A stretch of 64,000 nt of DNA from the NCBI GenBank assembly GCA_016719535.1, contig JADJYX010000011.1, positions 747-64,746 of the forward strand, read 5' to 3'. Under the pieces are notes generated by a model that saw nothing but the letters and a program-made list of their open reading frames with translations, was not told the DNA's origin and searched no databases. Shown in pieces: positions 49,123 to 53,228 of the stretch. Source of the stretch: Rubrivivax sp. (GTDB lineage: Bacteria > Pseudomonadota > Gammaproteobacteria > Burkholderiales > Burkholderiaceae_C). Position numbers and translations under genes: made by a program. How positions within the stretch are numbered: the first letter of the stretch is position 1; the number at the start of each line of letters is the position of its first letter.

Positions 49123-51575
49123 ATGACAAACCGATTCCCCGTCCGCAAGGTCGCCGTGCTCGGCGCCGGCGTCATGGGCGCGCAGATTGCCGCCCACCTG
49201 GTCAACTGCAAGGTGCCGGTGGTCCTGTTCGACTTGCCCGCCAAGCCTGGCCCCCAGGCTTCGCCACCCCCGAGGGGGCCGTGAAGTCGACCGGCGAAGC
49301 CGGATCGGCTTCGGTCCCCAAGAACGGCATCGCCCTGCGCGCCATCGACAACCTGAAGAAGCTCAAGCCCGCACCGCTGGGCGTGGCCGACGACGCGGCG
49401 CTGATCCAGCCCGCCAACTACGAGGAGCACCTGGCGCTGCTGGGCCAGTGCGACCTGGTGATCGAGGCCATTGCCGAGCGCATGGACTGGAAGCTGGACC
49501 TCTACACGAAGATCGCACCGGCCCTGGCCGCGCACGCCATCGTGGCCAGCAACACCTCGGGCCTGTCGATCACCAAGCTGAGCGAGGCGCTGCCCGAGAC
49601 CATCCGCCCGCGCTTCTGCGGCATCCACTTCTTCAACCCGCCGCGCTACATGGCGCTGGTGGAGCTGATCAACACCCCGGCCACGCAGCCCGAGGTGCTG
49701 GACCAGCTGGAAGCCTTCGTCACCACCGCGCTGGGAAAAAGCGTGGTGCGCGCCAAGGACACGCCCAATTTCGTGGCCAACCGCGTGGGCATCGCCGGCA
49801 TGCTGGCGACGATCAAGGAGGCCGAGAACTTCGGCCTGTCCTACGACGTCGTCGACGACCTCACCGGCAAGAAGCTGGGCCGCGCCAGCAGCGGTACCTT
49901 CCGCACCGCCGACGTGGTGGGCCTGGACACCATGGCCCATGTCATCGAGACGCTGCAGGACAATCTGGCCGACGACCCCTTCTATCCCAGCTACGCCACG
50001 CCGCCGGTGGTGAAGGCCTTGATCGAGAAGGGTGCGCTGGGCCAGAAGACGGGTGCCGGCTTCTACAAGAAGGTGGGCAAGGACATCCTGCGCCTGGACC
50101 CGGCCAAGGGCGACTATGTGCCCGGCGGTGCCAAGGTCGAGCCCATCGTCGAGCGCATGCTCAAGAAGCCGGCCGCCGAGCGGCTGAAGCTGCTGCGCGA
50201 AAGCAGCAACCCGCAGGCGCAGTTTTTGTGGGCCATCCTGCGTGATGCCTTCCACTATGCCGCCGTGCACCTGGAAGCCATCGCCGACAGCGCGCGCGAC
50301 GTCGACTTCGCGATGCGCTGGGGCTTCGGCATGAAGCAGGGCCCCTTCGAGCTGTGGCAGGAGGCCGGCTGGCAGCAGGTGGCGCAATGGGTCAAGGACG
50401 ACATCGACGCCGGCAAGGCGCTGTGCCAGGCGCCGCTGCCCGACTGGGTGTTCGATGGACGCACCGGCGTGCACACGCCCGAGGGCAGCTGGAGCCCGGC
50501 GAAGAAGGCCTATGTGCCGAAGAGCCAGCTGGCCGTCTACTGCCGGCAGTATTTCCCCGAGAGCGTGCTCGGCAGCGGCGCCACCGAGCCGCTGAAGGCC
50601 GGCACCGAGGTGTGGAAGAACGACGAGGCGCGCGTGTGGACGCTCGACGGCGAGGTGCTGATCCTGAGCATCACCGCCAAGCTGCACCTCATCAGCCCGG
50701 CGGTGATGGAAGCCCTCGGCAAGGCCATCGACCTGGCCGAGAGCCGCTACCAGGGCCTGGTGATCTGGTCGCCCGACGATGTCTTCTCGGCCGGCGCCAA
50801 CCTCGAATCGCTGATGCCGGTGTTCATGAAGAGCGGCTCCAAGGGCATCCTGCCGGTGGTCAAGCAGTTGCAGGACCTGATGCTGCGCCTGCGCTACGCC
50901 CAGGTGCCGGTGGTCAGCGCGATGCGCGGCATCGCGCTCGGCGGAGGCTGCGAACTGGCCGTCTACAGCCACCGGCGCGTGGCGGCGATGGAAACCTATG
51001 TCGGCCTGGTCGAGGTGGGCGTGGGCCTGGTGCCGGCCGGCGGCGGCCTGGCCTATATCGCGCGCCGTGCCGCCGAGATGGCGGGTGCCGCCAATGCCAA
51101 TGCCGACATCCTCAAATTCCTCACCGACGGCTTCACCAACGCCGCCATGGCCAAGGTGGGCACGAGCGCGATCGAATCGCGCAGGCTCGGCTACCTGCTG
51201 TGGAGCGACGTGATCGTGCCGCACAAGGACGAGCTGCTGTTCGTGGCGCTGGCGCAGGCCAGGGCCATGGCCGCCAGCGGCTGGCGCCCTCCGACGCAGG
51301 CGATGATCCCGGTGGCCGGCCGCAATGCGGTGGCCACCATCAAGGGCCAGCTCGCCAACATGCGCGACGGCGGCTTCATCAGCGCGCACGACTTCCACAT
51401 CGCCACGCTGATCGCCGAGGTGGTGTGCGGCGGTGACGTCGACGCCGGCTCGCTGGTGAGCGAGGCCTACCTGATGACGATGGAGCGCGAGCGCTTCTGC
51501 GCCCTGCTCGACCACCCCAAGACGCAGGAACGCATCATGGGCATGCTTCAAACGGGCAAGCCCGTGCGGAATTGA
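49123..51575 (+). CDS. 3-hydroxyacyl-CoA dehydrogenase/enoyl-CoA hydratase (FadN-like), with one frameshift at the C-run 49251-49255
   Basis: [19 protein letters not shown] (NAD motif) is in a different frame from ORF 49080..51575, which carries [22 protein letters not shown] and LGGGCE. Confidence 0.92.
49246..49315. repeat. REP-like element inserted inside the FadN-like coding sequence
   Basis: CGCCACCCCCGAGGGGGC (49262-49279) and CCGGCGAAGCCGGATC (49291-49306) match 49022-49039 (16/18) and 49052-49067 (15/16). Confidence 0.7.
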
Positions 51576-51582
51576 GCCATCG

Positions 51583-52028
51583 ATGAGCGACGCAACGCGT
51601 ACCGGATCCCTCCCCCTCTGCCGCTTGCGGGAGCGGGCAGGGGTGAGGGCGCGTGGCCTGCGCGCAAATGCCGCCGACGCCGAACGCCGCCTGTGGTCGC
51701 AGCTGCGCAACCGGCAACTGGCTGGCCGCAAGTTCCGCCGCCAGCACCCGGTCGGGCCGTTCATCGCCGACTTTGCCTGCCTGGAGGCGCGGCTGGTCGT
51801 CGAGGTGGATGGCGGCCAGCACTTCGGGGCCGAGGCGCTGCAGGCCGATGCTGGCCGCACCGAGGCCCTGAAGGACGCCGGCCTCGAGGCGCTTCGATTC
51901 GACAACCGGCAGGTGCTGACACAAACCGAAGCCGTGCTGGCGGCCATCCAGCAATGGCTGCAAGGCCATGACCCTCACCCCAACCCTCTCCCGCAGGCGG
52001 GAGCGGGGGCTTCTCGCAAGGAATCGCC

Positions 52029-52032
<4 letters not shown>
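51583..52032 (+). CDS. DUF559 (Vsr-like, PD-(D/E)xK) endonuclease domain protein
   Basis: AERRLWSQLR...FRRQHPVGPFIADFAC...LVVEVDGGQH...LRF.N motifs; the stop overlaps the thiolase ATG. Confidence 0.9.
51608..51650 (-). repeat. Left REP-like repeat flanking the DUF559 core
   Basis: Reverse complement GCCCTCACCCCTGCCCGCTCCCGCAAGCGGCAGAGGGGG matches 51971-52010 at 32 of 40 positions by manual count. Confidence 0.85.
51971..52010 (+). repeat. Right REP-like repeat flanking the DUF559 core
   Basis: ACCCTCACCCCAACCCTCTCCCGCAGGCGGGAGCGGGGG, with internal hairpin CTCCCGC-AG-GCGGGAG; inverted relative to 51608-51650. Confidence 0.85.

Positions 52033-53228
<1,196 letters not shown>

What the first reader, a model, noticed from the sequence alone, without database searches (positions are those of the whole stretch)
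51575..52032. DUF559 nuclease cassette bounded by inverted REP-like repeats, wedged inside the beta-oxidation operon
Seen: the nuclease core lies between two roughly 40-bp inverted repeats (51608-51650 and 51971-52010; 32/40 identical), each with an internal hairpin. Both repeats are translated as part of the ORF (LPLCRLRERAGVRA and PHPNPLPQAG). The ORF starts 7 nt after the FadN-like stop, and its stop overlaps the thiolase ATG. Known: REP-flanked genes are the architecture of RAYT/REPIN systems, but those use HUH tyrosine transposases, whereas DUF559 is a Vsr-like PD-(D/E)xK fold. Inference: this may be a REP-associated mobile or REP-propagating unit driven by a non-transposase nuclease, inserted in a way that keeps the host operon translationally coupled.
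Basis: partly seen in the sequence, partly recalled or inferred. Interest (0 to 1): 0.72.

Follow-up and report, generated by a model that had tools for sequence, protein, structure and literature searches.

The report
Nuclease gene bracketed by BoxC repeats
A small DUF559 nuclease gene flanked by two inverted copies of the old, unexplained "BoxC / triplex-motif" bacterial repeat sits inside a fatty-acid operon; the same gene-plus-repeats cassette recurs across many bacterial phyla and comes and goes like a selfish element, which suggests an enzyme partner for a repeat family that has had none.

Summary
A 149-codon DUF559 (Vsr-like) ORF at 51583-52032 lies between a FadN-like gene and a thiolase. 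It is bracketed by 38-nt inverted repeats (84% complementary).

The repeats are not RAYT-type REPs. Each is a copy of a known orphan repeat: BoxC, also called the PIT element or intrastrand triplex motif (Holder 2015).

The association holds across the family. In a sample ranked on the nuclease core alone, 46% of DUF559 genes have correctly oriented units on both sides and 78% on at least one. Shifted control positions give 0% and 3%.

Among Burkholderiales relatives the FadN-thiolase junction is empty in 39. It holds the cassette in 11 of 80 thiolase-sampled loci, in a patchy pattern. Decayed copies and one in-situ replacement by another cassette type also occur.

The protein is under purifying selection, keeps its catalytic motif, and its fold resembles the homing endonuclease I-Bth0305I. 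The cassette region is covered by metatranscriptome contigs running from FadN into the thiolase.

Best reading: a slowly cycling selfish cassette whose nuclease acts on BoxC units. The mechanism is inferred, not shown. I found no paper linking BoxC to DUF559.

The parts
51583..52032 (+). Longest ORF of the cassette (149 aa, ATG), a DUF559/YcjD-family Vsr-like nuclease. Alternative start GTG at 51643, used by gene callers for the 96%-identical P0001/P0002.
51643..51960 (+). Nuclease core (residues 21-126) with the motif D63...E74-x-D76-G-G-Q79-H80. This is the only part predicted to fold.
   Evidence: Pfam match. Invariant columns. AF2 pLDDT 79-92 over the core, and below 50 for residues 1-23 and 142-148. 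Foldseek matches 3HRL, I-Bth0305I and Vsr.
51614..51649 (+). 5' BoxC/triplex-motif unit, ordered hairpin then G-tail: CCCTCTGCC-GCTTGC-GGGAGCGGG-CAG-GGGTGAGGG. It has 2 substitutions from the TM_ECO consensus and its hairpin is degenerate. GGGAG (51630-51634) lies 8 nt upstream of GTG 51643.
51972..52007 (-). 3' BoxC/triplex-motif unit. The top strand reads C-tail then hairpin: CCCTCACCCC-AA-CCCTCTCCCGC-AG-GCGGGAGCGGG. It has 1 substitution from the consensus.
   Evidence: Metagenome contigs from other contexts break off exactly at 51971/51972 and 52007, and depth there is about 17x that of the core in run X1.
51576..51613 (+). Left outer flank: a 7-nt spacer after the FadN stop, then a variable N-terminal leader (MSDATRTGSLP) that is not conserved among homologs.
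52008..52032 (+). Right outer flank. It carries the thiolase Shine-Dalgarno AAGGA (52018-52022) and the ATGA stop/start overlap (52029-52032).
   Evidence: An AAGGA-type flank recurs in occupied loci. The overlap is conserved in L281, L282, L287, L289, L292 and L293.
49129..51575 (+). Upstream host gene: FadN-like 3-hydroxyacyl-CoA dehydrogenase / enoyl-CoA hydratase. The window copy has an apparent 1-nt frameshift (see Noticed in passing).
52029..53228 (+). Downstream host gene: acetyl-CoA acyltransferase (thiolase).

Best explanation
The 450-nt insert is one copy of a widespread, conserved cassette. The cassette is a YcjD/DUF559-family Vsr-like PD-(D/E)xK endonuclease gene bracketed by two inverted BoxC (PIT / intrastrand triplex motif) units. 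The G/C tails face the gene and the hairpins face outward.

The cassette behaves as a slowly cycling selfish element. It is acquired at a permissive operon junction, kept for long periods, decays, is lost, and can be replaced in place by another cassette.

Inferred mechanism: the nuclease recognises and nicks or cuts DNA at BoxC units, possibly in their hairpin or triplex-prone form. Recombinational repair then uses the roughly 36-nt units as homology arms. That copies or swaps the unit-to-unit segment, a homing-like gene conversion. Solo units and gene-less doublets elsewhere would be its non-autonomous partners or targets.

In this window the copy is an old resident. It is covered by RNA contigs continuous with the beta-oxidation operon. 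Its ORF is read through the 3' unit to an ATGA overlap that couples it to thiolase translation. In RNA, the 5' unit can pair with the 3' unit and bury the SD-like GGGAG and the GTG, which would keep nuclease expression low.
For: SHOWN - association:
- DUF559-first sample: 51 of 75 genes have correctly oriented units on both sides, and 69 of 75 on at least one.
- Core-only ranked sample, free of tail bias: 33 of 72 on both sides and 56 of 72 on at least one. Shifted controls give 0 of 132 and 4 of 132.
- Hosts span Proteobacteria, Chloroflexi, Nitrospirota, Planctomycetota and Desulfobacterota.

SHOWN - the two arms evolve together:
- Both arms are the same repeat variant in 46 of about 50 classifiable cassettes. 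For the rarer variants, 11 are concordant and 4 discordant.

SHOWN - boundaries:
- In L067, paralog identity jumps from about 82% to 100% exactly at the outer edge of the 5' unit. Homology stops at the outer edge of the 3' unit.

SHOWN - gain, loss and replacement at this junction:
- 39 relatives have an empty spacer of 34 nt or less. 11 of 80 thiolase-first loci are occupied. Each occupied locus has an empty sister.
- Decayed copies exist: L110 is frameshifted, L112 is 5'-truncated, L149 lacks the 3' unit, and L152 keeps a solo unit.
- L101 has a thiolase 90-91% identical to L292/L294, but its DUF559 is only 45-48% identical and its unit variant differs. It still shares the right outer flank with its sister L110.

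SHOWN - a working nuclease:
- dN/dS is 0.23.
- D63, E74, D76, Q79 and H80 are invariant.
- Matches: 3HRL at E 5e-33; I-Bth0305I homing-endonuclease catalytic domain at sequence E 0.0085 and TM 0.78; Vsr.

SHOWN - units away from the gene:
- 144 of 149 sampled units lie away from any DUF559 gene.
- E. coli has 23 units (Holder 2015, PMC4666352, Table 1).
- One of them, plus a degenerate hairpin and a duplicated gene fragment, lies next to the E. coli DUF559 gene ycjD, the one annotated in the region fetched.

SHOWN - RNA:
- RNA-run contigs span 51518-52066 and 51573-52057.
- The RNA MFE fold pairs the two arms, z = -4.8.
Against: - No biochemical link between DUF559 and BoxC DNA exists, and cleavage specificity is unknown.
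- No target-site duplication or conserved target was found.
- No empty allele or excision joint appeared in four runs that hold this strain.
- No co-conversion signal was seen in the flanking genes.
- The window's clade has stayed at one junction for a long time and is under purifying selection. That fits a host-useful gene at least as well as a purely selfish one.
- Co-variation between protein clade and unit variant is weak: 52.2% versus 49.8% identity.
- The rest of the 64-kb window holds no other unit.
- 22% of DUF559 genes in the unbiased sample have no detectable unit.
Confidence: 0.45

Rival explanations
1. Host-function nuclease with self-regulating flanks. DUF559 is a cellular enzyme, for example one that processes BoxC hairpin or triplex structures that stall replication. 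The flanking units are cis-regulatory elements: they sequester the RBS, stabilise the mRNA, and act as autoregulatory binding sites. The patchy distribution reflects frequent loss, not mobility.
For: - Long residence at one junction, with all 8 closest homologs there.
- dN/dS of 0.23.
- Partial co-divergence with the thiolase, r = 0.56.
- Conserved ATGA coupling.
- The RNA fold buries the SD-like GGGAG and the GTG.
- RNA contigs run through the cassette from FadN into the thiolase.
- BoxC loci are unstable in E. coli (Holder 2015, PMC4666352).
Against: - 39 relatives have clean empty spacers with no scars.
- In-situ replacement by a different cassette type occurred in L101.
- Decayed copies exist.
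- Some loci hold several copies (L045, L067, L073).
- A gene-conversion tract is bounded by the units.
- A housekeeping role fits poorly with 14% occupancy among close relatives.
Confidence: 0.2
2. True RAYT analogue. DUF559 is the enzyme that disseminates solo BoxC units and doublets through the genome, as RAYT does for REPINs. The gene itself is an immobile 'master' flanked by its substrates.
For: - The gene is flanked by two inverted units, like RAYT genes.
- Solo units greatly outnumber cassette-linked ones: 144 of 149.
- E. coli has 23 units. One lies beside ycjD, the DUF559 gene annotated in the region fetched.
- Gene-less doublets with the same tail-to-tail arrangement exist: L007, L026, L053 and L010, and by their coordinates 4 of the 5 E. 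coli pairs.
Against: - The only Pfam hits are DUF559 and two weak sub-threshold nuclease-family hits; there is no HUH/Y1 transposase hit.
- Vsr-like PD-(D/E)xK enzymes hydrolyse DNA. They are not known to make the covalent intermediates that strand transfer needs (established knowledge, not tested here).
- BoxC lacks the GTAG head of RAYT REPs.
- The gene itself is demonstrably gained, lost and swapped.
- The window holds no solo unit in 63.5 kb.
Confidence: 0.15
3. Passive cargo. BoxC units are moved or generated by something else, or by replication slippage. DUF559 is merely a small gene that became trapped between two units and hitch-hikes, or BoxC units preferentially accumulate next to it.
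For: - Other small repeats also pile up at the same junction: an sX9-like element and other hairpins.
- No mobility enzyme has ever been found near BoxC (Holder 2015).
- 22% of DUF559 genes lack units.
Against: - The association is seen across phyla at 43-66% protein identity.
- The geometry is fixed. The 3' unit starts -5 to +16 nt after residue 126 in most cassettes.
- The arms are concordant in variant.
- In the loci examined here, no other gene family was seen between such units.
- The shifted control gives 0 of 132.
Confidence: 0.15
4. Chance resemblance, or an annotation or assembly artefact.
For: The window has at least one assembly error elsewhere.
Against: - 0 matches in shuffles.
- Independent assemblies agree over the cassette with no indels.
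- Hundreds of homologous cassettes exist.
Confidence: 0.01

Closest known systems
BoxC / PIT element / intrastrand triplex motif TM_ECO (Bergler 1992; Hoyne & Maher 2000, 2002; Holder et al. 2015, PMC4666352)
   Same: - The flanking units are members. They share the consensus CCCTCNCCC-N3-6-GGGNGAGGG-N3-GGGNGAGGG.
- Like published copies they are intergenic, occur as solo units and inverted pairs, and are found in many phyla.
- They are linked with local instability.
   Different: - The published work found no associated gene, function or mobility activity.
- Here the units bracket a nuclease gene, and the pairing recurs family-wide.
- The window units are slightly degenerate, with 2 and 1 substitutions.
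RAYT / REPIN systems (REP-associated tyrosine transposases)
   Same: - A single small nuclease-type gene is flanked by two inverted copies of a short hairpin-forming repeat.
- The same repeat is dispersed in far more solo and doublet copies.
- Repeat variants differ between lineages.
   Different: - The enzyme is a Vsr-like PD-(D/E)xK hydrolase, not an HUH/Y1 transposase.
- The repeat has no GTAG head and carries a third, triplex-prone G segment.
- The gene itself is gained, lost and replaced, whereas RAYTs are mostly vertically inherited single copies.
Free-standing and intron-encoded homing endonucleases, especially the EDxHD/Vsr-like family (I-Bth0305I, PDB 3R3P)
   Same: - Same fold: Foldseek TM 0.78, sequence E 0.0085.
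- A small selfish-looking ORF wedged between conserved genes.
- Presence/absence polymorphism among relatives.
- Decay and re-invasion, as in the Goddard-Burt homing cycle.
   Different: - There is no intron or intein.
- Conserved inverted repeats flank the gene, which homing endonuclease genes do not have.
- The cleavage target is unknown, and no co-conversion tract was detected.
IS200/IS605-type and other hairpin-ended elements
   Same: Hairpins at both ends, no target-site duplication, small size.
   Different: There is no TnpA/TnpB. The ends are inverted copies of each other, and the nuclease belongs to another superfamily.
Vsr very-short-patch repair endonuclease
   Same: Shared fold and catalytic-motif layout.
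   Different: No adjacent cytosine methyltransferase is encoded here. The protein is shorter, and it has its own Pfam family, DUF559.

Membership tests
DUF559 / YcjD family (PF04480) | Match to the Pfam model above the gathering score | tested here: met
   117.2 bits against a cut-off of 20.6, E 4e-34. The NCBIfam PRK09767 equivalog scores only 94 bits against 218, so this is not the E. coli YcjD equivalog.
DUF559 / YcjD family (PF04480) | Vsr-like PD-(D/E)xK fold with the conserved D...ExDGxQH motif | tested here: met
   D63, E74, D76, Q79 and H80 are invariant. The AF2 core matches 3HRL (TM 0.86), 3R3P (0.78) and Vsr 1vsr/1cw0.
BoxC / PIT / TM_ECO repeat | Consensus CCCTCNCCC-N3-6-GGGNGAGGG-N3-GGGNGAGGG (Holder 2015) | tested here: met
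   51614-51649 (+) has 2 substitutions and 51972-52007 (-) has 1. Shuffles give no matches.
BoxC / PIT / TM_ECO repeat | Dispersed in many copies in the same genome | tested here: inconclusive
   There is no further copy in the 64-kb window. The 3' unit is high-copy in the metagenomes that hold this strain, but those copies may belong to other organisms. The whole genome is not available.
BoxC / PIT / TM_ECO repeat | The third segment mirrors the purine arm (triplex potential) | tested here: inconclusive
   Variant pairs fit the rule: GGGAGAGGG/GGGTGAGGG, GGGGGAAGG/GGGATGGGGG, GGGGAGGG/GGGGTGGGG. A crude score is 0.662 against 0.627 for shuffled tails (sd 0.007), with imprecise register. Triplex formation itself is not testable here.
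RAYT / REPIN system | HUH/Y1 (Y1_Tnp, IS200-like) transposase | tested here: not met
   The Pfam scan returns DUF559 plus two weak sub-threshold nuclease-family hits (MTES_1575, DUF2726), and no HUH/Y1 transposase family.
RAYT / REPIN system | Gene flanked by two inverted copies of the repeat | tested here: met
RAYT / REPIN system | REP with a conserved 5' GTAG/GTGG head next to the palindrome | tested here: not met
   The units begin with CCCTC... and end with GGGTGAGGG. There is no GTAG head.
Homing endonuclease gene (free-standing) | Nuclease of a family with proven homing members | tested here: met
   Similarity to the I-Bth0305I catalytic domain. This is a resemblance of fold, not proof of activity.
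Homing endonuclease gene (free-standing) | Occupied and empty alleles of the same site among relatives | tested here: met
Homing endonuclease gene (free-standing) | The enzyme cleaves the empty allele, and the gene is copied in by repair with co-conversion of flanks | not testable with these tools
   A sliding-window comparison showed no co-conversion signal. A cleavage assay is needed.
DDE-type insertion sequence / MITE | Target-site duplication flanking terminal inverted repeats | tested here: not met
   No consistent direct repeat flanks 12 occupied junctions.
Known anti-phage defence protein (PADLOC) | Match to a defence-system model | tested here: not met
   Only a marginal DpdF hit, E 0.0099 and 11.6 bits.

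The most novel reading that the evidence does not exclude
DUF559/YcjD-family Vsr-like nucleases are the missing cognate enzymes of the BoxC / PIT / triplex-motif repeats. Together they would form a second REP-RAYT-like system, widespread across bacterial phyla. It would be built on a PD-(D/E)xK hydrolase that recognises a hairpin/triplex-prone DNA structure. It would spread by unit-to-unit gene conversion (homing) rather than transposition. It would also be the cause of the genomic instability reported at BoxC loci.
Probability: 0.35. Interest if true: 0.85.

Novelty: new variant of a known kind. Interest (0 to 1): 0.72.

Why it matters
BoxC/PIT/triplex motifs have been known since 1992 and occur in several hundred genomes. 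They form stable triplexes in vitro and mark unstable loci. Yet no function, origin or mobilising enzyme is known; the 2015 survey states that none was found nearby.

DUF559 is a very large orphan nuclease family. This search found more than 6,400 hits. E. coli YcjD and a solved Neisseria structure are members, and no biological role is known.

A specific, conserved physical pairing of the two gives each a testable partner:
- a candidate structure-specific nuclease for an unusual DNA motif;
- a candidate selfish-element life cycle driven by a hydrolase rather than a transposase.

It also has a practical side for annotation. The 'PHPNPLPQAGEG' and 'SLSRLRERVGVRA' tails on many predicted proteins are translated repeat units.

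Tried and rejected
- **Peptide-level conservation of the repeat-encoded tails: rejected.** The N- and C-terminal motifs are reverse-complement translations of one DNA unit. The 3' unit is read in other frames in L019, L130, L044 and L147, with phase counts 32:16:16. The tails are predicted disordered.
- **GTG inside GGGGTGAGGG as the family-wide start codon, with GGGAGAGGG as its SD: rejected family-wide.** It is in frame in only 11 of 42 cassettes, about chance. It remains possible for the window's subfamily, where gene callers start P0001 and P0054 there.
- **Target-site duplication: none found**. A hint that the left flank carries a copy of the thiolase start (ATGAGC...) in the window, L002 and L019 was not consistent.
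- **Co-conversion of flanking genes between occupied loci: no signal.** L281 is simply the closest genome throughout.
- **Empty or excised alleles in the same population: no joint skips 51575-52029 in two DNA and two RNA runs**.
- **Rfam: no family matches the units**.
- **Plasmid or phage carriage:** only 44 of 72,556 plasmid records hold a homolog, mostly chromids or mislabelled chromosomes. Phages were not searched.
- **Defence-system membership: no PADLOC match**.
- **Ranking bias in the first locus sample.** The query included the repeat-encoded tails. I checked this with a core-only alignment. The association fell from 68% to 46% (both sides) but stayed far above the control.
- **Literature:** four full-text searches and three papers searched for the relevant terms gave no link between BoxC and DUF559. 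Subscription journals are not covered.
Full report
**1. What is in the window**

An ORF at 51583-52032 (+, 149 aa) lies between a FadN-like 3-hydroxyacyl-CoA dehydrogenase/enoyl-CoA hydratase gene and a thiolase gene. The FadN-like stop is at 51573-51575 and the thiolase ATG is at 52029. The ORF matches Pfam DUF559 at E 4e-34 over residues 21-126.

The ORF starts 7 nt after the upstream stop. Its TGA overlaps the thiolase ATG as ATGA.

An inverted repeat brackets the nuclease core: arms 51612-51649 and 51972-52009, 38 nt, 84% complementary. The motif occurs nowhere else in the 64 kb and never in shuffles.

**2. The repeat is conserved as DNA, not as peptide**

I aligned 22 homologs at 54-96% identity. 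The N-terminal 'SLSRxRERAGVRA' and C-terminal 'HPHPNPLPQAGEGA' are nearly invariant. These two peptides are reverse-complement translations of each other, so what is conserved is the inverted DNA repeat.

- In other cassettes the 3' unit is read in a different frame ('ALTPTLSRxRER'), or the 5' unit lies upstream of the start codon.
- The 3' unit phase is 32:16:16.
- AlphaFold gives pLDDT below 50 for residues 1-23 and 142-148, while the core is confident.

The translated tails are incidental.

**3. Identity of the repeat**

A full-text search for the unit sequence led to Holder et al. 2015 (PMC4666352). The unit is the BoxC repeat. According to that paper, BoxC was first noted in the 1990s (its references 46 and 47, the first being Bergler 1992). 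It was re-described as the PIT element by Hoyne & Maher, and again as the 'intrastrand triplex motif' TM_ECO. The consensus is CCCTCNCCC-N3-6-GGGNGAGGG-N3-GGGNGAGGG.

The window's units match this consensus with 2 substitutions (51614-51649, +) and 1 substitution (51972-52007, -).

That paper reports the motif in more than 260 genomes. It lists 23 copies in E. coli K-12, including five inverted pairs. It reports in-vitro triplex formation and raised local instability. It states explicitly that no transposase, integrase or other mobility activity was found near the motifs. DUF559 is not mentioned there. It is also absent from the G-quadruplex preprint on the same sequence, and the 2005 PD-(D/E)xK survey that covers YcjD does not mention any repeats. 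No Rfam family matches the units.

**4. The nuclease-repeat pairing is general**

I fetched 80 genomic loci with DUF559 homologs at 43-66% identity. They come from Proteobacteria, Chloroflexi, Nitrospirota, Planctomycetota, Desulfobacterota and others. Most show the same architecture:

[hairpin-G tail] - gene - [C tail-hairpin]

Sequence variants of the unit change in both arms together.

| Sample | Both sides | At least one side |
|---|---|---|
| DUF559-first loci, structural detector | 51/75 | 69/75 |
| Core-only ranked loci | 33/72 (46%) | 56/72 (78%) |
| Same geometry shifted by 900 nt | 0/132 | 4/132 |

The structural detector looks for a pyrimidine-arm hairpin plus a G tail. In most cassettes the 3' unit starts -5 to +16 nt after residue 126.

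The first sample was ranked with a query that included the repeat-encoded tails. I therefore repeated it with a core-only alignment, which is the second row.

Both arms are the same variant in 46 of about 50 classifiable cassettes.

Conversely, only 5 of 149 units sampled unit-first lie next to a DUF559 gene. Solo units and gene-less doublets are the majority, as REPs are relative to RAYT genes.

In E. coli K-12, ycjD is the DUF559 gene annotated in the region I fetched (I did not scan the whole genome for others). It has:
- a degenerate hairpin at its 3' end;
- a duplicated fragment of its own C-terminus downstream;
- TM_ECO copy no. 9 about 170 nt downstream, between ycjD and fabI.

By my own uniform-placement arithmetic, such proximity has a chance of about 0.4%.

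**5. Dynamics at the FadN-thiolase junction**

In 80 loci chosen by the thiolase alone:
- 39 have an empty spacer of 34 nt or less (most 9-25 nt), including L081, L082, L086, L091 and L099, the nearest of these thiolase-sampled genomes (the still closer metagenome contigs L280 and L281 are occupied);
- 11 hold a DUF559 cassette;
- others hold a DUF4442-like gene, an sX9-like element or other hairpins.

On a thiolase tree, occupancy is patchy and every occupied locus has an empty sister.

Decay stages are visible: L110 is frameshifted with multiplied hairpins, L112 has lost its 5' half, L149 lacks the 3' unit, and L152 keeps a solo unit.

All eight closest database homologs of the window protein sit at this same junction. 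Most have the stop overlapping the thiolase ATG. DUF559 and thiolase divergence correlate only moderately, r = 0.56. The window's clade is thus an old, largely vertical resident.

L101 is the clear exception:
- Its thiolase is 90-91% identical to those of L292 and L294.
- Its DUF559 is only 45-48% identical to theirs, with a different unit variant.
- It shares the right outer flank (GTGAATAC..AAGGA) with its sister L110.

That pattern is an in-situ replacement of the unit-to-unit segment.

In L067 two paralogous cassettes are about 82% identical upstream. Identity becomes 100% exactly at the outer edge of the 5' unit, and homology ends at the outer edge of the 3' unit. The units therefore delimit the exchanged segment.

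No target-site duplication was found. No co-conversion of the flanks was seen. No empty allele appeared in public runs holding this strain.

**6. The protein**

- The motif D63...E74-x-D76-G-G-Q79-H80 is invariant.
- The closest solved relatives by sequence are the Neisseria DUF559 protein 3HRL (E 5e-33) and, weakly, the catalytic domain of homing endonuclease I-Bth0305I (E 0.0085).
- The predicted core superposes on 3HRL (TM 0.86), I-Bth0305I (0.78) and Vsr.
- Between the window and the syntenic contig L281, dN/dS of the core is 0.23. Its dS is 0.75, against 0.34-0.39 in the flanking genes.

The protein is maintained by selection. The higher dS could reflect weaker codon constraint or exchange with other copies.

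There is no PADLOC match. Homologs are rare on plasmids.

**7. Expression context**

Contigs from two RNA runs run continuously from FadN through the cassette into the thiolase: 51518-52066 and 51573-52057. DNA carry-over in these libraries cannot be excluded.

Folded as RNA, the 5' arm pairs with the 3' arm and closes off the ORF (z = -4.8). That would bury GGGAG (51630-51634) and GTG 51643. Gene callers use this GTG as the start in the 96%-identical P0001/P0002.

Family-wide, however, the GTG in the tail is in frame no more often than chance.

**8. Interpretation**

Shown:
- a conserved cassette, nuclease plus inverted BoxC units;
- its boundaries;
- its gain, decay, loss and replacement at one junction;
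- selection on the nuclease;
- RNA contigs that run through it.

Inferred:
- the nuclease acts on BoxC DNA;
- the cassette moves or is exchanged by recombination through the units, in a homing-like way.

Rivals are a host-function nuclease with autoregulatory flanks, a strict RAYT-like repeat propagator, and passive cargo. None is excluded. The first is the strongest rival, because of the long residence and the purifying selection.

**9. Novelty**

Both components are known. Within the searchable literature their pairing is not. The architecture parallels RAYT/REP and homing endonuclease genes but uses another enzyme superfamily and an unusual triplex-prone repeat. I file it as a new variant of a known kind, of high interest if the nuclease-repeat link is confirmed experimentally.

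Noticed in passing
window 49129-49330 (FadN-like gene, 5' part): The FadN-like reading frame breaks. The first 44 residues (the Rossmann motif) are in a different frame from the rest. Relative to L281 there is a 62-nt palindromic insertion after 'LPAK'. Four independent public assemblies all carry one extra C behind 49266. The window therefore has a 1-nt homopolymer deletion (an assembly error), and the true insertion is an in-frame 63-nt (21-aa) loop.
   Followed up: yes
L084 1987-2161; also L097, L115, L122, L140, L146, L119, L132 (same FadN-thiolase junction): A different conserved element of about 130 nt (AAGCTACTGCG...) fills the same junction in eight relatives. It scores just under Rfam's threshold for the Xanthomonas sRNA sX9 (40.7 against 44 bits, E 2.6e-6). 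The junction is a general hotspot for small structured inserts.
   Followed up: partly
L096, L098, L102, L105, L119, L123, L128, L132, L135, L137, L147, L152, L156 (junction): In Acidovorax, Polaromonas and Rhodoferax relatives a gene of about 175 aa sits between FadN and the thiolase. By eye it looks like a DUF4442/thioesterase; I did not scan it. In L147 the DUF559 cassette lies after it.
   Followed up: no
L159 (E. coli K-12 NC_000913.3 1351040-1351760): Downstream of ycjD there is a second, truncated copy of the ycjD C-terminal coding sequence (GGAGACGGTGCTGGAGAATATTC...). It is followed by a degenerate G-tail and then BoxC copy no. 9. This looks like the remnant of a second cassette. BoxC was first reported in the envM (fabI) paper; that it is this very copy is my inference.
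   Followed up: partly
L281 3951-4060; L019 4880-5045; L294 3490-3590: Many cassettes carry an extra unit in the opposite orientation just outside the 5' unit, or tandem extra hairpins at either end (L110, L149, L292). The gene therefore often sits inside a small BIME-like cluster. In L281 the annotated ATG lies in the loop of that extra hairpin.
   Followed up: partly
L007 3405-3506, L026 3833-3935, L053 7500-7600, L010 4700-4800: Gene-less doublets share the tail-to-tail arrangement of the cassette but have only 20-27 nt between the tails. They often pair two different unit variants, like the type A + type B pairs reported in E. coli. Whether they are empty targets or deletion derivatives could not be decided.
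   Followed up: partly
window 50696-50760 (-): A sub-threshold Rfam hit to Actino-pnp (32.7 against 47.7 bits) lies inside the FadN-like coding region. It is probably chance in G+C-rich DNA.
   Followed up: no
L005, L011 (Dyella, Rhodanobacter): DUF559 cassettes in two Xanthomonadales genera lie between the same pair of long ORFs (about 920 aa and about 448 aa). This suggests other lineage-specific 'home' junctions besides FadN-thiolase.
   Followed up: no
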